Notes under the pieces: model-generated | What the model was told of the DNA's origin: nothing | The model's input: only the letters and a program-made list of their open reading frames with translations | Database searches by the model: none | Made by a program: the position numbers and the translations under genes | Origin: the human T2T-CHM13v2.0 reference genome, Homo sapiens | Assembly (NCBI GenBank): GCA_009914755.4 | Contig: CP086569.2 | Coordinates: 29,152,001-29,216,000 of the forward strand | Length of the DNA: 64,000 nt | Reading direction: 5' to 3' | Shown: piece by piece, positions 1 through 64,000 of the stretch | Layout of the letters: the number at the start of each line of letters is the position of its first letter | Position numbering within the stretch: position 1 is the stretch's first letter

Positions 1-44
1 CGTTCCCATTCCATTCAATTCCATTCCATTCAATTCCATTCCAT
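1..44. repeat. DYZ1/HSat3 HOR unit U0 (3' end only, cut by window start; unit phase chosen arbitrarily)
   Basis: Aligns with the last 44 bp preceding each later unit start (e.g. 3536-3579). Confidence 0.7.
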
Positions 45-3000
45 TTGTTTCCATTCTCTTCGATTCCATTTCTTTATATTCCATGCCATTCGATTCCATT
101 CTATTGGATTGCATTACATTCGTGTTCATTCCATTCCAGACCATTCCATTTGACTCCATTCTTTTCGAGCCCTTTCAATTTGAGTCCATTCCTTTCCAGT
201 CCATTTCACTCCAGTCCATTACTATCCATTCCATACCATTCCATCCCATTCCATTCCATTCCATTCCATTCCATTCCATTCCATTGCATTCCATTCCATT
301 CCATTGCACTGCACTCCATTCCATTACATTCTACTCTATCTGAGTCGATTTTATTGCATTAGATTCTATTCCATTGGATTACTTTCCATTCGATTACATT
401 CCATTCATGTACATTCCATTCCACTCAATTACATTCGAGTTGATTACATTACATTCCAGTATATTCCATTCTATTCGATCCCATTCCTGTCAATTCCATT
501 TCATTCGACTCCATTATATTCGATTCCATTCCACTCGAATCCATTCCATTAGAGGACATTCCATTCCAATGCATTCCATTCCATTCCATAGCATTCCATT
601 GCATTCGATTCCATTCCATTTGATGCCATTCCATTTGATGCCATTCCATGACATTCCATTCCATTCGAGTCCATTCCGTTCCAATTCATTCCATTCCGTT
701 TCATGAAATTCGAGTCCTTTCCAGTACATTTCATTCCAATCCCATCCAATCCAATCTACTCCATTCAATTCCTTTCCATTCCATTTGATTTGATTCCATT
801 CAGTTTGATTCCATTCCGTGAAATTTCGTTCCATTCTATTCCATTGCATTACTTTCCATTCAATTCCATTCCATTTCATTTCAGTCCATTCGCTTCCTTT
901 CCTTTCGATTCAATTCCACTTGATTCCACTCCATTCTATGCGATTTCATTCCAATCGATTCAATTCCATTCGATGACATTCCTTTCGTTTCCATTCCATT
1001 CGAGTCCATTCAATTTGAGCATTCGTGTCCATTCTATTCGAGTCCATTCCATTACCGTCTATTCTATTCCCTTCCATTCCTGTTGATTCAATTTCATTCC
1101 CTTCCATTCGATTCCTTTCCATTCGATTCCATTCCTTTCCATTCCATTCCATTCGTTCCCATTCCATGTGATTTCATTCCATTCCAGTCCATTATATTCG
1201 AGTCCACTCCACTCCATTCTATTACATTCAATTCCTTTTGAGTCCGTTCCATAACACTCCATTCATTTCGATTCCATTTCTTGCCAGTTTTCTTCCATTT
1301 TATTCCATTCCGTTCGATTCCATTCCATTCGATTGCATTCCATTCGAATCCTTTCCATTCCATTTCATTCCATTCCTTTCTATTCCATTCCATTTCATTC
1401 GATTTGATTCCATTCTGTTCTATTCCATTCAATTCTTTTTCATTCCATTCGAATCCTTTCTATTGCAGTCCATTCCATTCGAGTCCATTCCAATCCCTTC
1501 CATTCCATTCCATTACAGTCCATTCCAATAGATTCCATTCCTTTGCCTTCCATTCGAATCCATTCCATTCCAGTCCATTCCATTTGAGTCAATTCCATTC
1601 CATTGCATTCTATTCCTTTCCAAACCATTCGATTCCATTCGATTCAATTCCATTTGATTCTCTTTCATTCTATTTTATTCCATGCCATTTGATTGCATTG
1701 CATTCCATTCCGTTTGATTCCAGTACATTCAAGAAAGTTCCATTCCAGTCCATTGCTTTCCAGTCCATTCCATTCCACTCTAGTCTATTCCACTCCATTC
1801 CTTTCCATTCCATTCCATACTATTCCATTCCATTCCTTTGCATTCCGTTTCCAATCTATTCGAGTCCATTGCATTCCAGTCCAATCCATTCGATTACATT
1901 CCTTTTGATTCCCTGCCAGTCGATTGCATTGCATACTAGACCATTCCAAAGGAGTCCATTGCATTCTATCTCAACACTTTCCATTCCACTCTGTTCGAGT
2001 CCATTCCATTCCAGTCCATTTAATTCAAGGGCATTCCATTCCATTCCATTCCATTTCATATTATTCCATTCCATTCAATTCCATTCCAGATGATTCCATT
2101 CCATTCTATACCATTGCTCTCTGTTCCATTCCATTCCATCTGTCTCCATTCCTTTCGTTTCGATTCCTTTCCATTCCATTCCATTCCATTTGATCCTATT
2201 TTATTAAATTGCATTCTATTCGAGTGATTTCCATTCGAGTCCTTTCCATTAGATTCCATTGCATTCTATTCCATTCCTTTGGATTCCATTCCATTCCGTT
2301 CCGTTCACATCAATTCCTTGCGATTCCATTACATTCGATTTCTTGCCATTCGATTCCATTCCTTTTGACTCCATTTCATTCGATTCCATTCCATTCCATT
2401 AACTTCCATTCCATTCGAGACCTTTCCATTGCAGTCTTTTCCCTTCGAGTCCATTCCGTTCGATTCCCTTCCATTCGATTCCATTCCATTGGAGTCCGTA
2501 CCAGTCGAGTCCATTCTATTCCAGTCCATTAGTTTCGACTCCATTGCATTCGAGTGCATTCCATTCCGTGGCTGTCCATTCCATTCCGTTTGATGCCATT
2601 CCATACGATTCCATTCAATTCGAGACCATTCTATTCCTGTCCATTCCTTGTGGTTCGATTCCATTTCACTCTAGTCCATTCCATTCCATTCAATTCCATT
2701 CGACTCTATTCCGTTCCATTCAATTCCATCCCATTCGATTCCATTTTTTTCGAGAACCTTCCATTACACTCCCTTCCATTCCAGTGCATTCCATTCCAGT
2801 CTCTTCAGTTCGATTCCATTCCATTCGTTTCGATTCCTTTCCATTCCAGCCCATTCCATTCCATTCCATTCCTTTCCTTTCCGTTTCATTAGATTCCATT
2901 GCATTCGATTCCATTCAATTCAATTCCGTTCTATTCAATTTGATTCATGTCCATTTAATTCCATTCCATTAGATTCCATTCCGTTCGATTCCATTCCTTT

Positions 3001-3579
3001 CGAATCCATTCCATTGGAGTCCATTCACTTCCAGAACATTCCATTCCAGTCGAATCCATTCGAGTACATTCCATTAAAGTTCATTACATTCTAATACATT
3101 CCATTCCATTGCATTCCATTCCATTCCATTCGATGCCATTCGATTCCATTCCATGCCAAATCATTGCATTCCTTTCCATTCCGTTCCTATCAATTCCATT
3201 CCATTCGATTTAGTTTGATTTTATTCACTTCCATTCCATTCGATTCCATTCCATTGGAGTCAATTCCTTTGGACACCCAGCCTTTCCAGTCAATGTTTTT
3301 GGATTCCATTTTTTTGCATTCCATTACATTCTATGACATTCGATTCCGTTTCATTGCATTCCATTCCATACATTTTTATTCCATTCGAGACCGTAGCATT
3401 CCACTTTATTCCAGGTCTGTCCATTACACTACATTCCCTTCCATTCCAATGAATTCCATTCCATTCCAATCCATTCCTTTCCTTTCGCTTGCATTCCATT
3501 CTATTCTCTTCTACTGCATACAATTTCACTCCATTCGTTCCCATTCCATTCAATTCCATTCCATTCAATTCCATTCCAT
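45..3579. repeat. DYZ1/HSat3 HOR unit U1 (3535 bp)
   Basis: Marker 'ttgtttccattctcttcgattccatttctttatattccatgcc' at 45 and again at 3580. Sub-family 1: 'tttgatttgattccattcagtttgattcc' form. HaeIII site variant 'ccaggTctgtcc'. Confidence 0.75.
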
Positions 3580-6500
3580 TTGTTTCCATTCTCTTCGATT
3601 CCATTTCTTTATATTCCATGCCATTCGATTCCATTCTATTGGATTGCATTACATTCGTGTTCATTCCATTCCAGACCATTCCATTTGACTCCATTCTTTT
3701 CGAGCCCTTTCAATTTGAGTCCATTCCTTTCCAGTCCATTTCACTCCAGTCCATTACTATCCATTCCATACCATTCCATCCCATTCCATTCCATTCCATT
3801 CCATTCCATTCCATTCCATTCCATTGCACTGCACTCCATTCCATTACATTCTACTCTATCTGAGTCGATTTTATTGCATTAGATTCTATTCCATTGGATT
3901 ACTTTCCATTCGATTACATTCCATTCATGTACATTCCATTCCACTCAATTACATTCGAGTTGATTACATTACATTCCAGTATATTCCATTCTATTCGATC
4001 CCATTCCTGTCAATTCCATTTCATTCGACTCCATTATATTCGATTCCATTCCACTCGAAAACATTCCATTAGAGGACATTCCATTCCAATGCATTCCATT
4101 CCATTCCATAGCATTCCATTGCATTCGATTCCATTCCATTTGATGCCATTCCATTTGATGCCATTCCATGACATTCCATTCCATTCGAGTCCATTCCGTT
4201 CCAATTCATTCCATTCCGTTTCATGAAATTCGAGTCCTTTCCAGTACATTTCATTCCAATCCCATCCAATCCAATCTACTCCATTCAATTCCTTTCCATT
4301 CCATTTGATTTGATTCCATTCAGTTTGATTCCATTCCGTGAAATTTCGTTCCATTCTATTCCATTGCATTACTTTCCATTCAATTCCATTCCATTTCATT
4401 TCAGTCCATTCGCTTCCTTTCCTTTCGATTCAATTCCACTTGATTCCACTCCATTCTATGCGATTTCATTCCAATCGATTCAATTCCATTCGATGACATT
4501 CCTTTCGTTTCCATTCCATTCGAGTCCATTCAATTTGAGCATTCGTGTCCATTCTATTCGAGTCCATTCCATTACCGTCTATTCTATTCCCTTCCATTCC
4601 TGTTGATTCAATTTCATTCCCTTCCATTCGATTCCTTTCCATTCGATTCCATTCCTTTCCATTCCATTCCATTCGTTCCCATTCCATGTGATTTCATTCC
4701 ATTCCAGTCCATTATATTCGAGTCCACTCCACTCCATTCTATTACATTCAATTCCTTTTGAGTCCGTTCCATAACACTCCATTCATTTCGATTCCATTTC
4801 TTGCCAGTTTTCTTCCATTTTATTCCATTCCGTTCGATTCCATTCCATTCGATTGCATTCCATTAGAATCCTTTCCATTCCATTTCATTCCATTCCTTTC
4901 TATTCCATTCCATTTCATTCGATTTGATTCCATTCTGTTCTATTCCATTCAATTCTTTTTCATTCCATTCGAATCCTTTCTATTGCAGTCCATTCCATTC
5001 GAGTCCATTCCAATCCCTTCCATTCCATTCCATTACAGTCCATTCCAATAGATTCCATTCCTTTGCCTTCCATTCGAATCCATTCCATTCTAGTCCATTC
5101 CATTTGAGTCAATTCCATTCCATTCCATTCTATTCCTTTCCAAACCATTCGATTCCATTCGATTCAATTCCATTTGATTCTCTTTCATTCTATTTTATTC
5201 CATGCCATTTGATTGCATTGCATTCCATTCCGTTTGATTCCAGTCCATTCAAGAAAGTTCCATTCCAGTCCATTGCTTTCGAGTCCATTCCATTCCACTC
5301 TAGTCTATTCCACTCCATTCCTTTCCATTCCATTCCATACTATTCCATTCCATTCCTTTGCATTCCGTTTCCAATCTATTCGAGTCCATTGCATTCCAGT
5401 CCAATCCATTCCATTACATTCCTTTTGATTCCCTGCCAGTCGATTGCATTGCATACTAGACCATTCCAAAGGAGTCCATTGCATTCTATCTCAACACTTT
5501 CCATTCCACTCTGTTCGAGTCCATTCCATTCCAGTCCATTTAATTCAAGGGCATTCCATTCCATTCCATTCCATTTCATATTATTCCATTCCATTCAATT
5601 CCATTCCAGATGATTCCATTCCATTCTATACCATTGCTCTCTGTTCCATTCCATTCCATCTGTCTCCATTCCTTTCGTTTCGATTCCTTTCCATTCCATT
5701 CCATTACATTTGATCCTATTTTATTAAATTGCATTCTATTCGAGTGATTTCCATTCGAGTCCTTTCCATTAGATTCCATTGCATTCTATTCCATTCCTTT
5801 GGATTCCATTCCATTCCGTTCCGTTCACATCAATTCTTTGCGATTCCATTACATTCGATTTCTTGCCATTCGATTCCATTCCTTTTGACTCCATTTCATT
5901 CGATTCCATTCCATTCCATTAACTTCCATTCCATTCGAGACCTTTCCATTGCAGTCTTTTCCCTTCGAGTCCATTCCGTTCGATTCCCTTCCATTCGATT
6001 CCATTCCATTGGAGTCCGTACCAGTCGAGTCCATTCTATTCCAGTCCATTAGTTTCGACTCCATTGCATTCGAGTGCATTCCATTCCGTGGCTGTCCATT
6101 CCATTCCGTTTGATGCCATTCCATACGATTCCATTCAATTCGAGACCATTCTATTCCTGTCCATTCCTTGTGGTTCGATTCCATTTCAATCTAGTCCATT
6201 CCATTCCATTCAATTCCATTCGACTCTATTCCGTTCCATTCAATTCCATCCCATTCGATTCCATTTTTTTAGAGAACCTTCCATTACGCTCCCTTCCATT
6301 CCAGTGCATTCCATTCCAGTCTCTTCAGTTCGATTCCATTCCATTCGTTTCGATTCCTTTCCATTCCAGCCCATTCCATTCCATTCCATTCCTTTCCTTT
6401 CCGTTTCATTAGATTCCATTGCATTCGATTCCATTCAATTCAATTCCGTGCTATTCAATTTGATTCATGTCCATTTAATTCCATTCCATTAGATTCCATT

Positions 6501-7099
6501 CCGTTCGATTCCATTCCTTTCGAATCCATTCCATTGGAGTCCATTCACTTCCAGAACATTCCATTCCAGTCGAATCCATTCGAGTACATTCCATTAAAGT
6601 TCATTACATTCTAATACATTCCATTCCATTGCATTCCATTCCATTCCATTCGATGCCATTCGATTCCATTCCATGCCAAATCATTGCATTCCTTTCCATT
6701 CCGTTCCTATCAATTCCATTCCATTCGATTTAGTTTGATTCTATTCACTTCCATTCCATTCGATTCCATTCCATTGGAGTCAATTCCTTTGGACACTCAG
6801 CCTTTCCAGTCAATGTTTTTGGATTCCATTTTTTTGCATTCCATTACATTCTATGACATTCGATTCCGTTTCATTGCATTCCATTCCATACATTTTTATT
6901 CCATTCGAGACCGTAGCATTCCACTTTATTCCAGGTCTGTCCATTACACTACATTCCCTTCCATTCCAATGAATTCCATTCCATTCCAATCCATTCCTTT
7001 CCTTTCGCTTGCATTCCATTCTATTCTCTTCTACTGCATACAATTTCACTCCATTCGTTCCCATTCCATTCAATTCCATTCCATTCAATTCCATTCCAT
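3580..7099. repeat. DYZ1/HSat3 HOR unit U2 (3520 bp)
   Basis: Same marker at 3580 and 7100. Near-identical to U1 with a few SNVs (e.g. 4855 'cattagaatcc'). Confidence 0.75.
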
Positions 7100-10000
7100 T
7101 TGTTCCCATTCTCTTCGATTCCATTTCTTTATATTCCATGCCATTCGATTCCATTCTATTGGATTGCATTACATTCGTGTTCATTCCATTCCAGACCATT
7201 CCATTTGACTCCATTCTTTTCGAGCCCTTTCAATTTGAGTCCATTCCTTTCCAGTCCATTTCACTCCAGTCCATTACTATCCATTCTATACCATTCCATC
7301 CCATTCCATTCCATTGCATTCCATTCCATTCCATTGCATTCCATTCCATTCCATTCCATTGCACTGCACTCCATTCCATTACATTCTACTCTATCTGAGT
7401 CGATTTTATTGCATTAGATTCTATTCCATTGGATTACTTTCCATTCGATTACATTCCATTCATGTACATTCCATTCCACTCAATTACATTCGAGTTGATT
7501 ACATTACATTCCAGTATATTCCATTCTATTCGATCCCATTCCTGTCAATTCCATTTCATTCGATTCCATTATATTCGATTCCATTCCACTCGAATCCATT
7601 CCATTAGAGGACATTCCATTCCAATGCATTCCATTCCATTCCATAGCATTCCATTGCATTCGATTCCATTCCATTTGATGCCATTCCATTTGATGCCATT
7701 CCATGACATTCCATTCCATTCGAGTCCATTCCGTTCCAATTCATTCCATTCCGTTTCATGAAATTCGAGTCCTTTCCAGTACATTTCATTCCAATCCCAT
7801 CCAATCCAATCTACTCCATTCAATTCCTTTCCATTCCATTTGATTTGATTCCATTCAGTTTGATTCCATTCCGTGAAATTTCGTTCCATTCTATTCCATT
7901 GCATTACTTTCCATTCAATCCCATTCCATTTCATTTCAGTCCATTCTCTTCCTTTCCTTTCGATTCAATTCCATTTGATTCCTCTCCATTCTATGCGATT
8001 TCATTCCAATCGATTCAATTCCATTCGATGACATTCCTTTCGTTTCCATTCCATTCGAGTCCATTCAATTTGAGCATTCGTGTCCATTCTATTCGAGTCC
8101 ATTCCATTACCGTCTATTCTATTCCCTTCCATTCCTGTTGATTCAATTTCATTCCCTTCCATTCGATTCCTTTCCATTCGATTCCATTCCTTTCCATTCC
8201 ATTCCATTCGTTCCCATTCCATGTGATTTCATTCCATTCCAGTCCATTATATTCGAGTCCAATCCACTCCATTCTGTTACATTCAATTCCTTTTGAGTCC
8301 GTTCCGTAACACTCCATTCATTTCGATTCCATTTCTTGCCAGTTTTCTTCCATTTTATTCCATTCCGATCGATTCCATTCCATTCGATTGCATTCCATTC
8401 GAATCCTTTCCGTTCCATTTCATTCCATTCCTTTCTATTCCATTCCATTTCATTCGATTTGATTCCATTCTGTTCTATTCCATTCAATTCTTTTTCATTC
8501 CATTCGAATCCTTTCTATTGCAGTCCATTCCATTCGAGTCCATTCCAATCCCTTCCATTCCATTCCATTACAGTCCATTCCAATAGATTCCATTCCTTTG
8601 CCTTCCATTCGAATCCATTCCATTCTAGTCCATTCCATTTGAGTCAATTCCATTCCATTCCATTCTATTCCTTTCCAAACCATTCGATTCCATTCGATTC
8701 AATTCCATTTGATTCTCTTTCATTCTGTTTTATTCCATGCCATTTGATTGCATTGCATTCCATTCCGTTTGATTCCAGTCCATTCAAGAAAGTTCCATTC
8801 CAGTCCATTGCTTTCGAGTCCATTCCATTCCACTCTAGTCTATTCCACTCCATTCCTTTCCATTCCATTCCATACTATTCCATTCCATTCCTTTGCATTC
8901 CGTTTCCAATCTATTCGAGTCCATTGCATTCCAGTCCAATCCATTCCATTACATTCCTTTTGATTCCCTGCCAGTCGATTGCATTGCATACTAGACCATT
9001 CCAAAGGAGTCCATTGCATTCTATCTCAACACTTTCCATTCCACTCTGTTCGAGTCCATTCCATTCCAGTCCATTTAATTCAAGGGCATTCCATTCCATT
9101 CCATTCCATTTCATATTATTCCATTCCATTCAATTCCATTCCAGATGATTCCATTCCATTCTATACCATTGCTCTCTGTTCCATTCCATTCCATCTGTCT
9201 CCATTCCTTTCGTTTCGATTCCTTTCCATTCCATTCCATTACATTTGATCCTATTTTATTAAATTGCATTCTATTCGAGTGATTTCCATTCGAGTCCTTT
9301 CCATTAGATTCCATTGCATTCTATTCCATTCCTTTGGATTCCATTCCATTCCGTTCCGTTCACATCAATTCTTTGCGATTCCATTACATTCGATTTCTTG
9401 CCATTCGATTCCATTCCTTTTGACTCCATTTCATTCGATTCCATTCCATTCCATTAACTTCCATTCCATTCGAGACCTTTCCATTGCAGTCTTTTCCCTT
9501 CGAGTCCATTCCGTTCGATTCCCTTCCATTCGATTCCATTCCATTGGAGTCCGTACCAGTCGAGTCCATTCTATTCCAGTCCATTAGTTTCGACTCCATT
9601 GCATTCGAGTGCATTCCATTCCGTGGCTGTCCATTCCATTCCGTTTGATGCCATTCCATACGATTCCATTCAATTCGAGACCATTCTATTCCTGTCCATT
9701 CCTTGTGGTTCGATTCCATTTCAATCTAGTCCATTCCATTCCATTCAATTCCATTCGACTCTATTCCGTTGCATTCAATTCCATCCCATTCGATTCCATT
9801 TTTTTAGAGAACCTTCCATTACGCTCCCTTCCATTCCAGTGCATTCCATTCCAGTCTCTTCAGTTCGATTCCATTCCATTCGTTTCGATTCCTTTCCATT
9901 CCAGCCCATTCCATTCCATTCCATTCCTTTCCTTTCCGTTTCATTAGATTCCATTGCATTCGATTCCATTCAATTCAATTCCGTGCTATTCAATTTGATT

Positions 10001-10634
10001 CATGTCCATTTAATTCCATTCCATTAGATTCCATTCCGTTCGATTCCATTCCTTTCGAATCCATTCCATTGGAGTCCATTCACTTCCAGAACATTCCATT
10101 CCAGTCGAATCCATTCGAGTACATTCCATTAAAGTTCATTACATTCTAATACATTCCATTCCATTGCATTCCATTCCATTCCATTCGATGCCATTCGATT
10201 CCATTCCATGCCAAATCATTGCATTCCTTTCCATTCCGTTCCTATCAATTCCATTCCATTCGATTTAGTTTGATTCTATTCACTTCCATTCCATTCGATT
10301 CCATTCCATTGGAGTCAATTCCTTTGGACACCCAGCCTTTCCAGTCAATGTTTTTGGATTCCATTTTTTTGCATTCCATTACATTCTATGACATTCGATT
10401 CCGTTTCATTGCATTCCATTCCATACATTTTTATTCCATTCGAGACCGTAGCATTCCACTTTATTCCAGGTCTGTCCATTACACTACATTCCCTTCCATT
10501 CCAATGAATTCCATTCCATTCCAATCCATTCCTTTCCTTTCGCTTGCATTCCATTCTATTCTCTTCTACTGCATACAATTTCACTCCATTCGTTCCCATT
10601 CCATTCAATTCCATTCCATTCAATTCCATTCCAT
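7100..10634. repeat. DYZ1/HSat3 HOR unit U3 (3535 bp)
   Basis: Marker at 7100 and 10635. Carries a 15-bp (3-pentamer) insertion 'ccattgcattccatt' around 7310-7330 that is shared with U4. Confidence 0.75.
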
Positions 10635-13600
10635 TTGTTCCCATTCTCTTCGATTCCATTTCTTTATATTCCATGCCATTCGATTCCATTCTATTGGATT
10701 GCATTACATTCGTGTTCATTCCATTCCAGACCATTCCATTTGACTCCATTCTTTTCGAGCCCTTTCAATTTGAGTCCATTCCTTTCCAGTCCATTTCACT
10801 CCAGTCCATTACTATCCATTCTATACCATTCCATCCCATTCCATTCCATTGCATTCCATTCCATTCCATTGCATTCCATTCCATTCCATTCCATTGCACT
10901 GCACTCCATTCCATTACATTCTACTCTATCTGAGTCGATTTTATTGCATTAGATTCTATTCCATTGGATTACTTTCCATTCGATTACATTCCATTCATGT
11001 ACATTCCATTCCACTCAATTACATTCGAGTTGATTACATTACATTCCAGTATATTCCATTCTATTCGATCCCATTCCTGTCAATTCCATTTCATTCGATT
11101 CCATTATATTCGATTCCATTCCACTCGAATCCATTCCATTAGAGGACATTCCATTCCAATGCATTCCATTCCATTCCATAGCATTCCATTGCATTCGATT
11201 CCATTCCATTTGATGCCATTCCATTTGATGCCATTCCATGACATTCCATTCCATTCGAGTCCATTCCGTTCCAATTCATTCCATTCCGTTTCATGAAATT
11301 CGAGTCCTTTCCAGTACATTTCATTCCAATCCCATCCAATCCAATCTACTCCATTCAATTCCTTTCCATTCCATTTGATTTGATTCCATTCAGTTTGATT
11401 CCATTCCGTGAAATTTCGTTCCATTCTATTCCATTGCATTACTTTCCATTCAATCCCATTCCATTTCATTTCAGTCCATTCTCTTCCTTTCCTTTCGATT
11501 CAATTCCATTTGATTCCACTCCATTCTATGCGATTTCATTCCAATCGATTCAATTCCATTCGATGACATTCCTTTCGTTTCCATTCCATTCGAGTCCATT
11601 CAATTTGAGCATTCGTGTCCATTCTATTCGAGTCCATTCCATTACCGTCTATTCTATTCCCTTCCATTCCTGTTGATTCAATTTCATTCCCTTCCATTCG
11701 ATTCCTTTCCATTCGATTCCATTCCTTTCCATTCCATTCCATTCGTTCCCATTCCATGTGATTTCATTCCATTCCAGTCCATTATATTCGAGTCCAATCC
11801 ACTCCATTCTGTTACATTCAATTCCTTTTGAGTCCGTTCCGTAACACTCCATTCATTTCGATTCCATTTCTTGCCAGTTTTCTTCCATTTTATTCCATTC
11901 CGATCGATTCCATTCCATTCGATTGCATTCCATTCGAATCCTTTCCGTTCCATTTCATTCCATTCCTTTCTATTCCATTCCATTTCATTCGATTTGATTC
12001 CATTCTGTTCTATTCCATTCAATTCTTTTTCATTCCATTCGAATCCTTTCTATTGCAGTCCATTCCATTCGAGTCCATTCCAATCCCTTCCATTCCATTC
12101 CATTACAGTCCATTCCAATAGATTCCATTCCTTTGCCTTCCATTGGAATCCATTCCATTCTAGTCCATTCCATTTGAGTCAATTCCATTCCATTCCATTC
12201 TATTCCTTTCCAATCCATTCGATTCCATTCGATTCAATTCCATTTGATTCTCTTTCATTCTATTTTATTCCATGATATTTGATTGCATTGCATTCCATTC
12301 CGTTTGATTCCAGTACATTCAAGAAAGTTCCATTCCAGTCCATTGCTTTCGAGTCCATTCCATTCCACTCTAGTCTATTCCACTCCATTCCTTTCCATTC
12401 CATTCCATACTATTCCATTCCATTCCTTTGCATTCCGTTTCCAATCTATTCGAGTCCATTGCATTCCAGTCCAATCCATTCGATTACATTCCTTTTGATT
12501 CCCTGCCAGTCGATTGCATTGCATACTAGACCATTCCAAAGGAGTCCATTGCATTCTATCTCAACACTTTCCATTCCACTCTGTTCGAGTCCATTCCATT
12601 CCAGTCCATTTAATTCAAGGGCATTCCATTCCATTCCATTCCATTTCATATTATTCCATTCCATTCAATTCCATTCCAGATGATTCCATTCCATTCTATA
12701 CCATTGCTCTCTGTTCCATTCCATTCCATCTGTCTCCATTCCTTTCGTTTCGATTCCTTTCCATTCCATTCCATTCCATTTGATCCTATTTTATTAAATT
12801 GCATTCTCTTCGAGTGATTTCCATTCGAGTCCTTTCCATTAGATTCCATTCCATTCTATTCCATTCCTTTGGATTCCATTCCATTCCGTTCCGTTCACAT
12901 CAATTCTTTGCGATTCCATTACATTCAATTTCTTGCCATTCGATTCCATTCCTTTTGACTCCATTTCATTCGATTCCATTCCATTCCATTAACTTCCATT
13001 CCATTCGAGACCTTTCCATTGCAGTCTTTTCCCTTCGAGTCCATTCCGTTCGATTCCCTTCCATTCGATTCCATTCCATTGGAGTCCGTACCAGTCGAGT
13101 CCATTCTATTCCAGTCCATTAGTTTCGACTCCATTGCATTCGAGTGCATTCCATTCCGTGGCTGTCCATTCCATTCCGTTTGATGCCATTCCATACGATT
13201 CCATTCAATTCGAGACCATTCTATTCCTGTCCATTCCTTGTGGTTCGATTCCATTTCACTCTAGTCCATTCCATTCCATTCAATTCCATTCGACTCTATT
13301 CCGTTCCATTCAATTCCATCCCATTCGATTCCATTTTTTTCGAGAACCTTCCGTTACACTCCCTTCCATTCCAGTGCATTCCATTCCAGTCTCTTCAGTT
13401 TGATTCCATTCCATTCGTTTCGATTCCTTTCCATTCCAGCCCATTCCATTCCATTCCATTCCTTTCCTTTCCGTTTCATTAGATTCCATTGCATTCCATT
13501 CCATTCAATTCAATTCCGTGCTATTCAATTTGATTCATTTCCATTTAATTCCATTCCATTAGATTCCATTCCGTTCGATTCCATTCCTTTCGAATCCATT

Positions 13601-14154
13601 CCATTGGAGTCCATTCACTTCCAGAACATTCCATTCCAGTCGAATCCATTCGAGTACATTCCATTAAAGTTCATTACATTCTAATACATTCCATTCCATT
13701 CCATTCGATGCCATTCGATTCCATTCCATGCCAAATCATTGCATTCCTTTCCATTCCGTTCCTATCAATTCCATTCCATTCGATTTAGTTTGATTCTATT
13801 CACTTCCATTCCATTCGATTCCATTCCATTGGAGTCAATTCCTTTGGACACCCAGCCTTTCCAGTCAATGTTTTTGGATTCCATTTTTTTGCATTCCATT
13901 ACATTCTATGACATTCGATTCCGTTTCATTGCATTCCATTCCATACATTTTTATTCCATTCGAGACCGTAGCATTCCACTTTATTCCAGGCCTGTCCATT
14001 ACACTACATTCCCTTCCATTCCAATGAATTCCATTCCATTCCAATCCATTCCTTTCCTTTCGCTTGCATTCCATTCTATTCTCTTCTACTGCATACAATT
14101 TCACTCCATTCATTCCCATTCCATTCAATTCCATTCCATTCAATTCCATTCCAT
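10635..14154. repeat. DYZ1/HSat3 HOR unit U4 (3520 bp)
   Basis: Marker at 10635 and 14155. Same 15-bp insertion near 10845-10870. From this unit onward 'ccaggCctgtcc' (GGCC present) at 13988. Confidence 0.75.
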
Positions 14155-17100
14155 TTGTTTCCATTCTCTTCGATTCCATTTCTTTATATTCCATGCCATT
14201 CGATTCCATTTTATTGGATTGCATTACATTCGTGTTCATTCCATTCCAGACCATTCCATTTGACTCCATTCTTTTCGAGCCCTTTCAATTTGAGTCCATT
14301 CCTTTCCAGTCCATTTCACTCCAGTCCATTACTATCCATTCCATACCATTCCATCCCATTCCATCCCATTCCATTCCATTCCATTCCATTCCATTCCATT
14401 GCACTGCACTCCATTCCATTACATTCTACTCTATCTGAGTCGATTTTATTGCATTAGATTCTATTCCATTGGATTACTTTCCATTCGATTACATTCCATT
14501 CATGTACATTCCATTCCAGTCAATTACATTCGAGTTCATTACATTACATTCCAGTATATTCCATTCTATTCGATCCCATTCCTTTCAATTCCATTTCATT
14601 CGACTCCATTATATTCGATTCCATTCCACTCGAATCCATTCCATTAGAGGACATTCCATTCCAATGCACTCCATTCCATTCCATAGCATTCCATTGCATT
14701 CGATTCCATTCCATTTGATGCCATTCCATTTGATGCCATTCCATGACATTCCATTCCATTCGAGTCCATTCCGTTCCAATTCATTCCATTCCGTTTCATG
14801 AAATTCGAGTCCTTTCCAGTACATTTCATTCCAATCCCATCCAATCCAATCTACTCCATTCAATTCCTTTCCATTCCATTTGATTTGATTCCATTCAGTT
14901 TGATTCCATTCCGTGAAATTTCGTTCCATTGTATTCCATTGCATTACTTTCCATTCAATTCCATTCCATTTCATTTCAGTCCATTCGCTTCCTTTCCTTT
15001 TGATTCAATTCCATTTGATTCCACTCCATTCTATGCGATTTCATTCCAATCGATTCAATTCCATTCGATGACATTCCTTTCGTTTCCATTCCATTCGAGT
15101 CCATTCAATTTGAACATTCGTGTCCATTCTATTCGAGTCCATTCCATTACCGTCTATTCTATTCCCTTCCATTCCTGTTGATTCAATTTCATTCCCTTCC
15201 ATTCGATTCCTTTCCATTCGATTCCATTCCTTTCCATTCCATTCCATTCGTTCCCATTCCATGTGATTTCATTCCATTCCAGTCCATTATATTCGAGTCC
15301 ACTCCACTCCATTCTATTACATTCAATTCCTTTTGAGTCCGTTCCATAACACTCCATTCATTTCGATTCCATTTCTTGCCAGTTTTCTTCCATTTTATTC
15401 CATTCCGTTTGATTCCATTCCATTCGATTGCATTCCATTCGAATCCTTTCCATTCCATTTCATTCCATTCCTTTCTATTCCATTCCATTTCATTCGATTT
15501 GATTCCATTCTGTTCTATTCCATTCAATTCTTTTTCATTCCATTCGAATCCTTTCTATTGCAGTCCATTCCATTCGAGTCCATTCCAATCCCTTCCATTC
15601 CATTCCATTACAGTCCATTCCAATAGATTCCATTCCTTTGCCTTCCATTCGAATCCATTCCATTCTAGTCCATTCCATTTGAGTCAATTCCATTCCATTC
15701 CATTCTATTCCTTTCCAAACCATTCGATTCCATTCGATTCAATTCCATTTGATTCTCTTTCATTCTATTTTATTCCATGCCATTTGATTGCATTGCATTC
15801 CATTCCGTTTGATTCCAGTCCATTCAAGAAAGTTCCATTCCAGTCCATTGCTTTCCAGTCCATTCCATTCCACTCTAGTCTATTCCACTCCATTCCTTTC
15901 CATTCCATTCCATACTATTCCATTCCATTCCTTTGCATTCCGTTTCCAATCTATTCGAGTCCATTGCATTCCAGTCCAATCCATTCGATTACATTCCTTT
16001 TGATTCCCTGCCAGTCGATTGCATTGCATACTAGACCATTCCAAAGGAGTCCATTCCATTCTATCTCAACACTTTCCATTCCACTCTGTTCGAGTCCATT
16101 CCATTCCAGTCCATTTAATTCAAGGGCATTCCATTCCATTCCATTCCATTTCATATTATTCCATTCCATTCAATTCCATTCCAGATGATTCCATTCCATT
16201 CTATACCATTGCTCTCTGTTCCATTCCATTCCATCTGTCTCCATTCCTTTCGTTTCGATTCCTTTCCATTCCATTCCATTCCATTTCATCCTATTTTATT
16301 AAATTGCATTCTATTCGAGTGATTTCCATTCGAGTCCTTTCCATTCGATTCCATTCCATTCTATTCCATTCCTTTGGATTCCATTCCATTCCGTCCATTC
16401 ACATCCATTCCTTGCGATTCCATTACATTCGATTTCTTGCCATTCGATTCCATTCCTTTTGACTCCATTTCATTCGATTCCATTCCATTCCATTAATTTC
16501 CATTCCATTCGAGACCTTTCCATTGCAGTCTTTTCCCTTCGAGTCCATTCCGTTCGATTCCCTTCCATTCGATTCCATTCCATTGGAGTCCGTACCAGTC
16601 GAGTCCATTCTATTCCAGTCCATTAGTTTCGACTCCATTGCATTCGAGTGCATTCCATTCCGTGGCTGTCCATTCCATTCCGTTTCATGCCATTCCATAC
16701 GATTCCATTCAATTCGAGACCATTCTATTCCTGTCCATTCCTTGTGGTTCCATTCCATTTCACTCTAGGCCATTCCATTCCATTCAATTCCATTCGACTC
16801 TATTCCGTTCCATTCAATACTATTCCATTCGATTCCATTTTTTTCGAGAACCTTCCATTACACTCCCTTCCATTCCAGTGCATTCCATTCCAGTCTCTTC
16901 AGTTCGATTCCATTCCATTCGTTTCGATTCCTTTCCATTCCAGCCCATTCCATTCCATTCCATTCCTTTCCTTTCCGTTTCATTAGATTCCATTCAACTC
17001 AATTCCGTGCTATTCAATTTGATTCATTTCCATTTAATTCCATTCCATTAGATTCCATTCCGTTCGATTCCATTCCTTTCGAATCCATTCCATTGGAGTC

Positions 17101-45945: not shown

Positions 45946-47764
45946 TTGTTTCCATTCTCTTCGATTCCATTTCTTATATTCCATGCCATTCGATTCCATT
46001 CTATTGGATTGCATTACATTCGTGTTCATTCCATTCCAGACCATTCCATTTAACTCCATTCCTTTCGAGCCCTTTCAATTTGAGTCCATTCCTTTCCAGT
46101 CCATTTCACTCCAGTCCATTACTATCCATTCCATACCATTCCATCCCATTGCATTCCATTCCATTCCATTGCATTGCATTCCATTCCATTCCATTCCATT
46201 GCACTGCACTCCATTCCATTACATTCTATTCTATTTGAGTCGATTTTATTGCATTAGATTCTATTCCATTGGATTACTTTCCATTCGATTACATTCCATT
46301 CATGTACATTCCATTCCAGTGAATTACAATCGAGTTCATTACATTACATTCCAGTATATTCCATTGTGTTCGATCCCATTCCTTTCAATTCCATTTCATT
46401 CGACTCCATTATATTCGATTCCATTCCACTCGAATCCATTCCATTAGAGGACATTCCATTCCAATGCATTCCATTCCATTCCAAAGCATTCCATTGCATT
46501 CGATTCCATTCCATTTGATGCCATTCCATGACATTCCATTCCATTCGAGTCCATTCCGTTCCAATTCATTCCATTCCGTTTCATGAAATTCGAGTCCTTT
46601 CCATTCCATTTCATTCCAATCCCATCCAATCCAATCTACTCCATTCAATTCCTTTCCATTCCATTTGATTATATTCCATTGATTTGATTCCATTCAGTTT
46701 GATTCCATTCCGTGAAATTTCGTTCCATTCTATTCCATTGCATTACTTTCCATTCAATTCCATTCCATTTCATTTCAGTCCATTCGCTTCCTTTCCTTTC
46801 GATTCAATTCTATTTTATTCCACTCCATTCTATGCGATTTCATTCCAATCGATTCAATTCCATTCGATGACATTCCTTTCGTTTCCATTCCCTTCGAGTC
46901 CATTCAATTTGAGCATTCGTGTCCATTCTATTCGAGTCCATTCCATTACCGTCTATTCTATTCCCTTCCATTCCTGTTGATTCAATTTCATTCCCTTCCA
47001 TTCGATTCCTTTCCATTCGATTCCATTCCTTTCCATTCCATTCCATTCGTTCCCATTCCATGTGATTTCATTCCATTCCAGTCCATTATATTCGAGTCCA
47101 CTCCACTCCATTCTATTACATTCAATTCCTTTTGAGTCCGTTCCATAACACTCCATTCATTTCGATTCCTTTTCTTGCCAGTTTTCTTCCATTTTATTCC
47201 ATTCCGTTCGATTCCATTCCACTCGATTGCATTCCATTCGAATCCTTTCTATTCCATTCCATTTCATTCGATTTGATTCCATTCTGTTCTATTCCATTCA
47301 ATTCTTTTTCATTCCATTCGAATCCTTTCTATTGCAGTCCATTCCATTCGATTCCATTCCAACCCCTTCGATTCCATTCCATTACAGTCCATTCCAATAG
47401 ATTCCATTCCTTTCCCTTTCATTCTAATCCATTCCATTTGTGTCAATTCCTTTCCAATCCATTCGACTGGATTTGATTCTCTTTCATTCTATTTGATTGC
47501 ATGGCATTCCATTCCGTTTGATTCCAGACCATTCAAGAAAGTTCCATTCCAGTCCATTGCTTTCGAGTCCATTCCATTCTACTCTAGTCTATTCCATTCC
47601 ATTCCTTTCCATTCCATTCCATACTATTCCATTCCATTCCTTTGCATTCCGTTTCCAATCTATTCGAGTCCATTGCATTCCAGTCCAATCCATTCGATTA
47701 TATTCCTTTTAATTCCCTGCTAGTCGATTGCATTGCATACTAGACCATTCCAAAGGAGTCCATA
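45946..47764. repeat. DYZ1/HSat3 terminal HOR unit U14. Truncated ~1.9 kb into the unit and noticeably more diverged, with several pentamer-multiple deletions.
   Basis: Marker at 45946. It ends at 'ccaaaggagtccat', which in U13 lies 1918 bp into the unit (44301-44320) but here only 1818 bp in, so ~100 bp of deletions (e.g. 47221-47260, 47400-47480). Confidence 0.7.
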
Positions 47765-61631
<13,867 letters not shown>

Positions 61632-64000
61632 TTATAGATGATATATATTACATGTTATGTGCTATGCCTTATATGTAACATATAACCTCATATATTTTAT
61701 ATGTCATAGTATATAATATTTATCCGGTGTCATCTTATATATACTATATATATTACATAACATATATAATATATAATACATATTATACATCTTATATATG
61801 AAATTATATAATTATAGATAACATAATACACATTTATATGTATTATGATATATAACAAAGGTACTATATCATATATGATATATAATATATATATTTGTAG
61901 TACATATTATAATTTTTACATATTATAATTTATATAATTATATAATTTTTTATAGAATATAAATAATTATATATGATTATATAATTCTATATATTATAAA
62001 TGAAAATATGTAGAATTACATGTTTATCTAGTTATATGTATAATAATATAATTATATATAGTTATATATATCACATAATAGACAACATACATATTATATA
62101 ATGTATAATATATATTATAGAATATATGATACATGATATATATGATATTTAATATAACATAATATAATCTATATTATAATATTATGTATGTTACTTATAT
62201 TGGGTGATACGTAATATATATTATGTAATAAGAAATAATATAATATATATTATATTATGATATTTTATGTAAATTATGTTATAAAAGTATATATAACATA
62301 ATATATAGTTATATATAATATATTATGTAGTTATATATATTATATTACATATTTACATAAAATATTATACAGTTATATATAATTTCAAATAGTTATATAT
62401 AACAGAATATAAAACATATAGAATACATATCATAAAATATATATTGTATACCATATATATTAGGTATCATATATTGTATGTTATATATCATATACTGTAT
62501 ATCATATATCATATATTATATGTTATATATATCACATTCCACATATTGTATATTATAAATTATACATAATATATTGCATTCTTTATTTTACATGTAATAA
62601 ATTATACATTATAGGTAACATAGTATATATTGTATGTAACCGGTATATTCTATGTAAAATATATAATATATAACATATGTGACATGTAATTAATAACATA
62701 GTCATATAATATATATTTAATATAGGTATTATACATACAACGTATTATATATAATATATAATATGTATTACATATGTCATAAAATATAATATATATTATA
62801 AGTCGCATTTTATATATACAATTATATATTATTATATGTTGTTTTATACTATATATAACATAGACATAATATATATATTATGCATAATGGTTATTTTGTA
62901 TAGCAGATATATTATATATAATATATATAATCTATAATTTATATTTAATACATATATTAACCGTATAATATATTCTATATATGATATATAACATATATAA
63001 TATATGACATAAATTATAATATATACTATATGTCATATTGTATAAATATAAAACTTACATATTATCAATTATTATATTTTATACAATATATATAATATAA
63101 GATGCAGGATGTAAAACAATATTATACATAGGTTATATATATTATATATATGATACTGTATATTATTATATACATAATGTATACGTATGTTTGTGGGTGC
63201 CCTTTTTCCCATCTCATAACGTGTTTTAAGAAGCGCAGCCTAATAACTTGTGGGCTTGGGATTCAGTTCTTGAAACAAAACTCTGAGCCTTCAATGACCT
63301 TTCGGTCTATGTAAAAGCACTCCTGTCTTCCTGGCAGCAGTTGGACCTCACAATGTGGATTGTGCCCTCACCCAGCAATACTTATGCCCTATCGCCATGG
63401 TGACGGAATTAGGGGTCTCCTGCTCTTCGTCCTAACGACCACTGTCTGTGCTGTGTCTTTCAAAGGTCAGAAGAGAATGAACCTTTGTGGTTTTATTTTC
63501 CCTGAGTTTGCTTTTTCTCATGGGGAACCTGTGTTGCTGCTTTGAAGGTATATTCATACTGGCCTTTCAAATGCCAACTCTTCAAATTACTAGTTAAGGT
63601 TTTCAAAATATGTTATTTAAAAAATTATCCTCTGTATTTTCCATATGCAGTTATAAGTAGGTTTCATGGTTATGTTTTATTCCTCAGTTTATACATTTGA
63701 TTATTGTACCAAGCAGAGTACCTTTGAAATTTTTTTTCATTTAAAAAATATGGATCTTGGCTCAGGCCTGTAATCCCAGCAAATTTGGAGGCCAAGGCAA
63801 GGGGATCACAAGGTGAAGAGATCAAGACCATCCTGGCCAATACAGTGAAACGCTGTCACTACTAAAAATCCAAAAAATTAGCTAGGCATGGTGGCAGCTG
63901 CTGTAGTCCCAGTGTGGTGTAGTCCCAGCTACCTGGGAGGCTGAGGGAGGACAATCGCTTGGACCCGTGAGGCAGATGTTGCAGTGAGCAAAGATGGCGC
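61632..64000 (+). repeat. DYZ2 unit 7 (partial; window ends inside the Alu)
   Basis: AT-rich 61632-63189, unique 63190-63758, Alu from 63759 to the window end. Confidence 0.75.
63759..64000 (+). mobile_element. Alu fragment (DYZ2 unit 7), truncated by the window end
   Basis: Same Alu 5' end 'ggctcaggcctgtaatcccagcaaatttggaggccaaggcaagggg...'. The window stops at 'gcaaagatggcgc'. Confidence 0.8.

What the first reader, a model, noticed from the sequence alone, without database searches (positions are those of the whole stretch)
1..64000. Window is human Yq12-type heterochromatin (DYZ1/HSat3 abutting DYZ2/HSat1B), not a gene-bearing or prokaryotic locus
The first 47.7 kb is a ~3.5 kb higher-order repeat of CCATT pentamers. 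The last 16.2 kb is a 2.42 kb AT-rich+Alu composite repeat. That pairing, with those unit lengths, is the known architecture of the human Y long-arm heterochromatin.

Every ORF in the supplied track is explained by periodic translation. CCATT read in three frames gives the repeating peptide 'HSIPF', and GGAAT on the minus strand gives 'MEWNG'. No coding, RNA-gene, CRISPR or operon-like signal is present. The honest answer to 'is there a new biological system here' is no.
Basis: partly seen in the sequence, partly recalled or inferred. Interest (0 to 1): 0.55.

Follow-up and report, generated by a model that had tools for sequence, protein, structure and literature searches.

The report
Human Y-chromosome satellite DNA junction
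The whole window is ordinary, already well-described human Y long-arm heterochromatin, where a DYZ1 (HSat3A6) satellite array runs directly into a DYZ2 (HSat1B) array; it holds no genes, and all its "ORFs" are artefacts of translating a 5-base repeat.

Summary
The observation and the interpretation both hold. Bases 1-47763 are about 13.5 tandem units of 3504-3549 bp built from CCATT pentamers, 96.4-99.7% identical to each other. Bases 47764-64000 are a diverged partial unit followed by 2418-2431 bp units, each with three parts: a GC-richer 563 bp segment, a 5'-truncated Alu, and a 1.56 kb stretch of 86% AT.

Block 1 belongs to the Y-specific HSat3A6/DYZ1 subfamily. Of the 14 published HSat2/3 diagnostic 24-mers, only the HSat3A6 one occurs (21 exact copies). 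The chr15 marker is absent. A published human DYZ TaqMan assay matches exactly once per unit. GC content and CpG density match published DYZ1 and DYZ2 values. The DYZ2 consensus heptamer ACATACG sits at the AT-rich/GC-rich joint in 6 of 7 units.

All 193 ORFs of at least 90 aa lie in block 1 and show 5-residue periodicity. Rfam, tRNA and Pfam searches found nothing above threshold.

Near-identical units occur as short contigs in unrelated "bacterial" assemblies, which is known human contamination.

I could not align the window to a human reference, so the chrY placement rests on markers and literature. Verdict: already known, low interest.

The parts
1..47763 (+). DYZ1 / HSat3A6 satellite array, with the CCATT (CATTC) strand on +. 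It comprises a 3399-bp partial unit at the window's left edge, 12 full units of 3504-3549 bp, and a 1998 bp partial unit at the junction.
   Evidence: Pentamer content; TRF; 3.5 kb 24-mer periodicity; unit identities of 96.4-99.7%; HSat3A6-specific 24-mer 21 times exact with no other subfamily marker; GC 38.8% and 1 CpG per 34.7 bp, against 38% and 1 per 35 bp published (10.1101/2022.12.01.518658).
38673..42221 (+). One representative full DYZ1 unit (3549 bp), delimited by successive Y1.1 primer sites.
   Evidence: HaeIII/StuI and EcoRI each cut once per unit in this part of the array.
2550..2604 (+). Example of the 55 bp target of the published 'Human DYZ' TaqMan assay (forward primer, probe, reverse primer). 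It recurs once per unit, 13 times in all.
   Evidence: The forward primer matches exactly 13 times, the probe 12 times exactly plus once with 1 mismatch, and the reverse-primer complement at the cognate site of all 13 units (12 exact, 1 with one mismatch), in the correct order. Assay sequences are from PMC4184833.
3400..3553 (+). Example of the 154 bp interval between convergent Y1.1 and Y1.2 primer sites. It recurs once per unit, 13 times.
   Evidence: The primer sequences and the 154 bp product size were recalled from memory (Kogan et al. 1987) and could not be confirmed in the paper library.
24532..38672 (+). Four DYZ1 units (u7-u10) arranged as a local duplication of a two-unit block of about 7.05 kb.
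   Evidence: u8 vs u10 is 99.66% and u7 vs u9 is 98.45%, against about 97.9% for neighbouring units. Extra EcoRI sites alternate at 23823/30911/37964 and at 27013/34066. There is a secondary 24-mer distance peak at 7053 bp.
45766..47763 (+). Last, truncated and degraded DYZ1 unit at the array edge.
   Evidence: 92.3-93.3% identity including gaps to interior units, against 96.7-98.8% for the control unit. It has deletions of 15, 20, 15 and 15 bp, concentrated in the last ~500 bp.
47763..47764 (.). DYZ1 to DYZ2 array junction (...CCAAAGGAGTCCAT|ATGATATATTATTTAA...).
   Evidence: Alignment to the preceding DYZ1 unit and to the following DYZ2 unit. No exact copy of the 30-mer spanning the junction was found in the metagenome or genome collections.
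47764..48669 (+). Junction-proximal partial DYZ2 unit, AT-rich part only, strongly diverged.
   Evidence: Only 82-84% identical to the same part of the other units; 86.4% AT. It lacks the CGTATGT heptamer at its 3' joint.
48670..64000 (+). DYZ2 / HSat1B array: six full units (2420, 2420, 2431, 2418, 2418 and 2418 bp) plus an 806 bp partial unit at the window end.
   Evidence: GC 24.8% and 1 CpG per 135 bp for the whole of block 2, 47765-64000, against 24% and 1 per 150 bp published. HaeIII fragments of 2144-2157 bp.
48670..49232 (+). GC-richer, non-Alu segment of the DYZ2 unit (563 bp, about 39% GC); example copy.
   Evidence: Its longest ORF is 61 aa. The T2T-Y preprint lists 'a more GC-rich region' as one of the three parts of the unit.
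49233..49523 (+). 5'-truncated, old Alu element inside the DYZ2 unit; example copy.
   Evidence: A sub-threshold Rfam hit to the Alu-derived mir-1268 family lies at 49354-49420.
49524..51089 (+). Extremely AT-rich segment of the DYZ2 unit (1566 bp, 85.7% AT), ending in CGTATGT at the joint with the next GC-richer segment; example copy.
   Evidence: The heptamer is the reverse complement of the ACATACG described at the HSATI/AT-rich intersection of the 2,420 bp DYZ2 consensus (10.1101/2022.12.01.518658).

Best explanation
The window is a piece of the human Y-chromosome long-arm heterochromatin (Yq12). It spans one of the several dozen boundaries where a DYZ1 array (the Y-specific HSat3A6 subfamily, about 3.5 kb nested repeat of CATTC pentamers) directly abuts a DYZ2 array (HSat1B, about 2.42 kb composite of a GC-richer segment, an old 5'-truncated Alu and an AT-rich stretch).

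It encodes nothing. It is non-coding constitutive heterochromatin.

Shown here:
- Units within each array are highly similar.
- Length changes are mostly multiples of 5 bp.
- A two-unit block has been duplicated locally.
- The units next to the boundary are the most degraded.

Inferred, in line with the T2T-Y and 43-Y studies: the arrays are maintained and remodelled by unequal sister-chromatid exchange and gene conversion, which act mostly in array interiors and leave the edges to decay.

Inferred from work on HSat3 in general: any activity is structural or acts as a sink. Block 1 offers about 45 TEAD-core CATTCC sites per kb, so it could serve as a transcription-factor binding platform. Published clinical data suggest little or no role in male development.
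For: Unit lengths: 3504-3549 bp and 2418-2431 bp, against published ~3.5-3.6 kb and 2,413/2,420 bp.

Subfamily marker: only the HSat3A6 (chrY) diagnostic 24-mer of Altemose 2014 is present, 21 times exact. The 13 other HSat2/3 subfamily markers have 0 hits at up to 1 mismatch.

qPCR assay: the published human DYZ forward primer, probe and reverse primer match once per unit.

Composition: GC and CpG density are 38.8% and 1/34.7 bp in block 1, and 24.8% and 1/135 bp in block 2. Published values are 38% and 1/35, and 24% and 1/150.

DYZ2 anatomy: three parts, with the Alu starting at consensus position 13 and 18-19% diverged (published '5' truncated', '20% diverged'), and an AT-rich part of 85.4-86.2% AT (published '>85% AT'). 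The consensus heptamer sits at the joint in 6 of 7 units.

No other elements: unit lengths vary by at most 45 bp (DYZ1) and 13 bp (DYZ2), so no foreign insertion is present. This fits the reported absence of other transposable elements across most of the Yq heterochromatin.

Array edges: units on both sides of the boundary are more diverged, as reported for Yq12 array peripheries.

Contaminants: DYZ1 units 97.5-99.1% identical occur as short contigs in unrelated Actinomadura, Streptomyces, Senimuribacter and Polyangiaceae assemblies. This is the human HSat3/HSat1B contamination the T2T-Y paper reported.

Non-coding.
Against: No human or ape reference genome could be searched, so the chrY placement is inferred from markers and literature, not from alignment.

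Altemose 2014 lists a minor chr7 localisation for HSat3A6.

The exact junction 30-mer was not found in any public collection available here, so the junction has no independent confirmation.

The AluY consensus, the Y1.1/Y1.2 primers and the classical 3.4/2.1 kb HaeIII band sizes come from my memory.
Confidence: 0.94

Rival explanations
1. The window is an autosomal HSat3/HSat1B boundary on an acrocentric short arm (chr15p in particular) or on chr10, not the Y chromosome.
For: HSat1B also occurs in smaller amounts on acrocentric short arms and chr10. On chr15p an HSat3 array lies next to an HSat1B array, with a diverged HSat3 block between them. Hallast et al. treat DYZ2 as 'Y-unspecific'.
Against: The chr15-specific HSat3A5 24-mer has 0 hits within 2 mismatches. 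The acrocentric markers A1, A2, A4, B2, B3 and B4 have 0 hits at up to 1 mismatch. The chrY HSat3A6 marker occurs 21 times exact. The 3.5 kb unit and the DYZ assay sites are DYZ1 features.
Confidence: 0.02
2. The content is genuine Yq12 satellite, but the DYZ1|DYZ2 join at 47763/47764 is an assembly artefact: a misjoin of reads from two arrays.
For: Satellite regions are prone to misassembly. The junction 30-mer has no exact copy in the collections searched. No reads were available.
Against: Both flanks show the gradual edge degradation expected of real array ends. The last DYZ1 unit accumulates deletions in multiples of 5 bp towards the join. The first DYZ2 partial unit is only about 83% identical to the rest. 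A misjoin of interior reads would bring ordinary 97-99% units right up to the breakpoint. Direct DYZ1/DYZ2 alternation is the known architecture.
Confidence: 0.03
3. The window comes from a non-human great ape carrying related HSat3 and HSat1 satellites.
For: HSat-type satellites exist in other apes. The ape sex-chromosome paper I read gives no statement for or against HSat3A6/HSat1B outside humans.
Against: Markers derived from human reads (the HSat3A6 24-mer) and a human qPCR assay match exactly once or twice per unit. Laboratory contaminants in bacterial assemblies, whose plausible source is human DNA, are 97.5-99.1% identical, which is the same range as units within the window. The reported lineage-specific Y expansions in gorilla, chimpanzee and bonobo involve other satellites, HSat1A/SAR and StSat/pCht.
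Confidence: 0.01
4. The window is a prokaryotic or phage locus encoding pentapeptide-repeat or extensin-like proteins.
For: Bacterial-code ORFs of up to 305 aa fill block 1. The longest weakly match Pfam Pentapeptide_4 (25-26 bits) and Extensin_1 (24-31 bits). Near-identical DNA sits in records labelled as bacterial genomes.
Against: Both Pfam hits are far below their curated cut-offs of 38 and 105 bits. ORFs overlap in all three frames and on both strands and repeat every 3.5 kb. The 5-residue periodicity follows from a 5 bp DNA repeat. An Alu element is present in every block 2 unit. There is no match in plasmids or complete E. coli genomes. The 'bacterial' contigs are about one unit long or shorter and come from unrelated phyla, the signature of contamination.
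Confidence: 0

Closest known systems
DYZ1 (HSat3 subfamily A6), human Yq12
   Same: CATTC/CCATT pentamer base. Nested unit of 3504-3549 bp. HSat3A6 diagnostic 24-mer. DYZ qPCR assay sites once per unit. GC 38.8% and 1 CpG per 35 bp. About one HaeIII and one EcoRI site per unit. Inter-unit identity of 96-99.7%.
   Different: Nothing of substance. The first three full units lack the HaeIII site (one mismatch in the Y1.1 site). Some units carry extra EcoRI sites. The last unit is degraded. All of this is ordinary intra-array variation.
DYZ2 (HSat1B), human Yq12
   Same: Units of 2418, 2420 and 2431 bp against the 2,420 bp consensus. Three-part unit: GC-richer segment, 5'-truncated Alu about 19% diverged, and a stretch of more than 85% AT. 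ACATACG heptamer at the joint. GC 24.8%. HaeIII fragment of about 2.14 kb.
   Different: The window reads the unit in the opposite orientation to the published consensus description. The junction-proximal partial unit is only about 83% identical to the others and lacks the heptamer.
chr15p HSat3 (A5) / HSat1B neighbourhood
   Same: An HSat3 array lies next to an HSat1B array.
   Different: The HSat3 subfamily differs: the HSat3A5 marker is absent here and the HSat3A6 marker is present. On chr15 a diverged HSat3 block is reported between the two arrays. Here the transition is abrupt, at a single base position.
Yq11/Yq12 transition repeats (DYZ18, the 3.1 kb and 2.7 kb repeats)
   Same: They are Y-specific, and the 2.7 kb unit is partly derived from DYZ1.
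   Different: Unit lengths here are 3.5 kb and 2.42 kb, not 3.1 or 2.7 kb. Block 2 is HSat1B, not DYZ18.

Membership tests
DYZ1 / HSat3A6 | Derived from tandem CATTC (CCATT) pentamers | tested here: met
   33% of 5-mers are exact CCATT rotations and 73% are within 1 mismatch. TRF consensus is CCATTCCATTCCATT over 6-47699.
DYZ1 / HSat3A6 | Nested (higher-order) repeat unit of about 3.5-3.6 kb | tested here: met
   24-mer nearest-copy distances of 3505-3559 bp. Twelve units of 3504-3549 bp.
DYZ1 / HSat3A6 | Carries the HSat3A6-specific 24-mer and not those of other HSat2/3 subfamilies (Altemose 2014, Table 1) | tested here: met
   TCGTTTCGATTCCTTTCCATTCCA occurs 21 times exact and 5 times with 1 mismatch. 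All 13 other markers have 0 hits at up to 1 mismatch.
DYZ1 / HSat3A6 | Target of the human DYZ TaqMan assay (forward, probe, reverse) | tested here: met
   All three oligos match at 0-1 mismatch once per unit, in order, giving a 55 bp amplicon. Sequences are from PMC4184833.
DYZ1 / HSat3A6 | GC about 38% and about 1 CpG per 35 bp | tested here: met
   38.8% and 1 per 34.7 bp, against Hallast et al..
DYZ1 / HSat3A6 | Male-specific, located on Yq12 | not testable with these tools
   No human reference genome or sex-stratified read data could be searched. The location is inferred from the markers above.
DYZ2 / HSat1B | Tandem unit of about 2.4 kb (2,413/2,420 bp consensus) | tested here: met
   Units of 2420, 2420, 2431, 2418, 2418 and 2418 bp.
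DYZ2 / HSat1B | [quoted passage not shown] | tested here: met
   563 bp at about 39% GC, a 291 bp Alu at about 51% GC, and 1564-1577 bp at 85.4-86.2% AT in all six units.
DYZ2 / HSat1B | Alu subunit 5'-truncated and about 20% diverged from AluY | tested here: met
   Aligns from consensus position 13 at 80.8-82.2% identity.
DYZ2 / HSat1B | ACATACG heptamer at the HSATI/AT-rich intersection of the consensus | tested here: met
   The reverse complement CGTATGT lies 4 bases before the AT-rich|GC-rich joint in 6 of 7 units. It is absent from the diverged first unit.
DYZ2 / HSat1B | GC about 24% and about 1 CpG per 150 bp | tested here: met
   24.8% and 1 per 135 bp.
Yq12 block architecture | DYZ1 and DYZ2 arrays alternate and abut directly, with no other transposable elements | tested here: met
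   A single sharp junction at 47763|47764. Unit lengths vary by at most 45 bp and 13 bp, so there are no insertions. RepeatMasker itself was not available.
Yq12 block architecture | Units at array peripheries are more diverged than interior units | tested here: met
   The last DYZ1 unit is 92-93% identical against 97-99% for a control unit. The first DYZ2 partial unit is 82-84% identical against 96-99%.
chr15p / acrocentric HSat3 next to HSat1B | HSat3 of subfamily A5 (chr15) or A1/A2/A4/B2-B5 (acrocentrics) | tested here: not met
   HSat3A5 marker: 0 hits within 2 mismatches. The other markers: 0 hits at up to 1 mismatch.
Pentapeptide-repeat / extensin-like proteins | Score above the Pfam gathering threshold | tested here: not met
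   Pentapeptide_4 scores 24.8-25.8 bits against a cut-off of 38. Extensin_1 scores 24-31 bits against a cut-off of 105.

The most novel reading that the evidence does not exclude
The abrupt breakpoint, together with the strongly diverged, heptamer-less DYZ2 edge unit (about 83% identity) and the stepwise-deleted DYZ1 edge unit, might be a specific 'junction module' shared by many or all DYZ1-to-DYZ2 boundaries. On this reading it is copied along with multi-block duplications and is relevant to how Yq12 keeps its reported ~1:1 DYZ1:DYZ2 unit ratio, and is not a private, decayed array end. My evidence neither supports nor excludes this: the junction 30-mer had no exact match in the collections available, and those collections do not include human assemblies.
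Probability: 0.08. Interest if true: 0.3.

Novelty: already known. Interest (0 to 1): 0.06.

Why it matters
Biologically it adds nothing new. DYZ1 and DYZ2 have been known since the 1970s-80s, and their full arrangement was published with the T2T-Y and 43-Y assemblies.

Its value is practical. It is a clean example of human male satellite DNA entering a scan built for microbial-type loci. There it generates hundreds of long bacterial-code "ORFs" and weak pentapeptide-repeat-like Pfam hits.

The same units sit, labelled as Actinomadura, Streptomyces, Senimuribacter and Polyangiaceae contigs, in a reference genome collection. Windows of this type can be filtered out cheaply, using the CCATT pentamer fraction, the 5-residue ORF periodicity or the HSat3A6 24-mer.

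Tried and rejected
1. The Y1.1/Y1.2 primers recalled from memory hit perfectly, but no paper in the library contains them. They are kept only as memory-based support. The DYZ TaqMan assay from PMC4184833 serves as the citable test.

2. An exact search for the 30-mer spanning the junction found nothing in metagenome contigs or genome contigs, so there is no independent copy of this junction.

3. Rfam at gathering thresholds found nothing. In E-value mode on one DYZ2 unit the only hit was mir-1268 at 35 bits against a gathering score of 83. It lies inside the Alu, and I recall mir-1268 as an Alu-derived family, so I read it as Alu sequence, not a miRNA gene.

4. ARAGORN found no tRNA.

5. Pfam on the five longest or most typical ORFs gave only sub-threshold Pentapeptide_4 and Extensin_1 hits, rejected as periodicity and low-complexity artefacts.

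6. An exact look-up of four ORF products in the 15-billion-protein collection found none.

7. Megablast of one DYZ2 unit against plasmids and one DYZ1 unit against complete E. coli genomes gave no match.

8. The ape sex-chromosome paper was read for statements on HSat1B or DYZ1 in other apes. It has none, so the non-human rival is rejected on marker and contaminant identity only.

9. ACATACG on the + strand occurs only once, which looked like a failed marker. It turned out that the published consensus is in the opposite orientation.

10. A global lag-identity scan failed to show the 3.5 kb period because of accumulated indels. The k-mer distance histogram showed it.

Full report

Yes. The window splits cleanly into two compositional domains. 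Bases 1 to about 47.7 kb have GC 0.38-0.40 and a strong C-over-G skew. The rest has GC 0.21-0.27 and no skew.

In block 1, 33% of all 5-mers are exact rotations of CCATT and 73% are within one mismatch. The complementary GGAAT is essentially absent from the + strand. Tandem Repeats Finder reports a single array over 6-47699 with the consensus CCATTCCATTCCATT.

A simple lag-identity scan missed the higher-order period because indels accumulate. The nearest-copy distance of 24-mers, however, is sharply concentrated at 3505-3559 bp in block 1 and at 2418/2420/2431 bp in block 2.

- Twelve full block 1 units are 3504-3549 bp long and 96.4-99.7% identical.
- Six full block 2 units are 2418-2431 bp long and 96.4-99.3% identical.

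**2. The ORF claim**

CCATT translates in its three frames to PFHSI, HSIPF and IPFHS. GGAAT translates to GMEWN, EWNGM and NGMEW.

All 193 bacterial-code ORFs of at least 90 aa lie in block 1. Block 2 has none longer than 70 aa.

In stop-free stretches of at least 90 codons, 69% of + strand residues are F, H, I, P or S, and 57% of - strand residues are E, G, M, N or W. Residue identity at lag 5 is 0.40-0.45, against at most 0.05 at lags 3, 4, 6 and 7.

The longest ORFs give only sub-threshold Pfam hits: Pentapeptide_4 at about 25 bits against a cut-off of 38, and Extensin_1 at 24-31 bits against a cut-off of 105. This is what a 5-residue periodic, low-complexity translation would produce.

Other searches were also empty:
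- No Rfam family reaches its gathering score and no tRNA is found.
- The only E-value-mode hit is mir-1268, at 35 bits against a gathering score of 83. It lies inside the Alu element and reflects Alu sequence.

**3. What block 1 is**

The literature defines DYZ1 as a male-specific HSat3 subfamily (HSat3A6) with a nested unit of about 3.5-3.6 kb derived from CATTC pentamers, with 38% GC and about 1 CpG per 35 bp. Block 1 has 3504-3549 bp units, 38.8% GC and 1 CpG per 34.7 bp.

The discriminating test used Table 1 of Altemose et al. 2014 (PMC4022460), which gives one subfamily-specific 24-mer for each of 14 HSat2/3 subfamilies. Only the HSat3A6 marker occurs: 21 exact copies, up to two per unit. 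The other 13 have no hit at up to 1 mismatch. The chr15-specific HSat3A5 marker has none even within 2 mismatches.

A published "Human DYZ" TaqMan assay (PMC4184833) matches with forward primer, probe and reverse primer in the right order once per unit.

Two primers I recalled from memory (Y1.1/Y1.2) also hit once per unit, convergently and 154 bp apart. I could not confirm them in the library.

HaeIII (GGCC) and EcoRI cut about once per unit. From memory, this agrees with the classical male-specific restriction bands.

**4. What block 2 is**

Published DYZ2/HSat1B has these features:
- a unit of about 2.4 kb, with a 2,413 bp consensus extended to 2,420 bp;
- an old, 5'-truncated AluY-like fragment about 20% diverged;
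- overall about 24% GC and about 1 CpG per 150 bp;

The window's units are 2420, 2420, 2431, 2418, 2418 and 2418 bp. Each has a 563 bp segment of about 39% GC, then a 291 bp Alu on the + strand, then 1564-1577 bp of 85.4-86.2% AT.

The Alu aligns to consensus positions 13-288 at 80.8-82.2% identity, with a 15 nt internal insertion (consensus from memory).

Overall GC is 24.8% with 1 CpG per 135 bp.

The heptamer appears as its reverse complement CGTATGT, 4 bases before the AT-rich|GC-rich joint, in 6 of 7 units. The window therefore reads DYZ2 in the opposite orientation to the published consensus.

HaeIII leaves fragments of 2144-2157 bp.

**5. The junction and array dynamics**

DYZ1 homology ends at ...CCAAAGGAGTCCAT (47763), and DYZ2-type AT-rich sequence starts at the next base. 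Both flanks are degraded.

- The last, truncated DYZ1 unit is 92-93% identical to interior units (gaps counted), against 97-99% for a control unit. It has deletions of 15, 20, 15 and 15 bp concentrated in its final 500 bp.
- The first partial DYZ2 unit is only 82-84% identical to the others and lacks the heptamer.

This is the edge-divergence pattern Hallast et al. describe for Yq12 arrays. It also argues against a misjoin of interior reads.

Inside the DYZ1 array, units u7-u10 (24532-38672) form a recent duplication of a two-unit block of about 7.05 kb. u8 vs u10 is 99.66% identical, extra EcoRI sites alternate, and there is a 7053 bp k-mer distance peak.

Length differences between units are mostly multiples of 5 bp.

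Together these observations fit the accepted mechanism: unequal sister-chromatid exchange and gene conversion homogenise array interiors, while the edges decay. That mechanism is inferred, not demonstrated here.

**6. Rivals**

- **chr15p or another acrocentric short arm.** The serious rival is chr15p, where an HSat3 array lies next to an HSat1B array. HSat1B itself is not Y-specific. The subfamily-marker test rejects this.
- **Non-human ape.** This could not be tested by alignment, and the ape paper was uninformative. But human-derived markers match exactly. Contaminant contigs in unrelated bacterial assemblies are 97.5-99.1% identical to the window's units. The plausible common source of those contaminants is human DNA, as the T2T-Y paper documented.
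- **Prokaryotic coding locus.** Excluded by the Alu, the frame-independent periodic ORFs, the sub-threshold Pfam scores, and the absence of matches in plasmids and complete E. coli genomes.

**7. Function**

Nothing here is coding. The region is constitutive heterochromatin.

Block 1 carries 2157 CATTCC sites, about 45 per kb, against about 45 expected in total from base composition. Block 2 has 0.4 per kb. Recent work proposes that HSat3 arrays act as TEAD and other transcription-factor binding platforms, and notes that HSat3A6 is a divergent subfamily. Whether that applies to Yq12 is not shown.

A clinical review concludes that DYZ arrays have a minor role, or none, in male development.

**8. 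Verdict**

The feature is already known, and interest is low.

What remains unverified is the direct placement on a human Y reference, and read support for this particular junction.

Noticed in passing
L001 (BMRF01000076.1, Actinomadura cremea JCM 3308, 3637 bp), L005 (CAYVXY010000078.1, Polyangiaceae MAG, 3604 bp), L002 and L004 (Streptomyces JCM strains), L003 (Senimuribacter sp.): Contigs in GTDB representative 'bacterial' genomes are 97.5-99.1% identical to the window's DYZ1 units. Two of them are about one unit long, which looks like a collapsed tandem repeat. They appear to be human male DNA contamination, as reported in the T2T-Y paper.
   Followed up: partly
L008 (OOKJ01002338.1) 1-1666; the match corresponds to window 48894-49020: A metagenome contig whose first ~1540 bp are not DYZ2; its start reads like primate LINE-1 ORF2 antisense (my recognition from memory). 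Its last 127 bp are 100% identical to the GC-richer DYZ2 segment, so the breakpoint lies inside that segment. It could be an HSat1B array edge elsewhere in the human genome, a progenitor locus, or a chimeric contig.
   Followed up: partly
L006 (BNJU01004413.1, 54.6 kb metagenome contig; 10.1 kb fetched): Tandem DYZ2-type units with 2420-2435 bp spacing, only about 95% identical to the window's units. This may be long-read noise or a more diverged HSat1B array, possibly acrocentric or peripheral Yq12. Not resolved.
   Followed up: partly
window 24532-38672: A local duplication of a two-unit DYZ1 block of about 7.05 kb. u8 vs u10 is 99.66% identical, variant EcoRI sites alternate, and there is a 7053 bp k-mer distance peak.
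   Followed up: yes
window 3400-13988: The first three full DYZ1 units lack the HaeIII/StuI site because of one mismatch in the Y1.1 primer site, and they are most similar to each other (99.0%). This is a local variant sub-block within the array.
   Followed up: partly
window 43642-44559 and 45530-46447 (+ strand ORFs, 305 aa): Translations of the pentamer satellite weakly match Pfam Pentapeptide_4 and Extensin_1, below their cut-offs. This is a predictable false-positive trap for automated annotation of contaminated assemblies.
   Followed up: yes
window 49354-49420 and the equivalent position in each DYZ2 unit: A sub-threshold Rfam hit to mir-1268 (35 bits against a gathering score of 83), caused by the Alu sequence and its 15 nt internal duplication (GTAGTCCCAG...GTAGTCCCAG).
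   Followed up: yes
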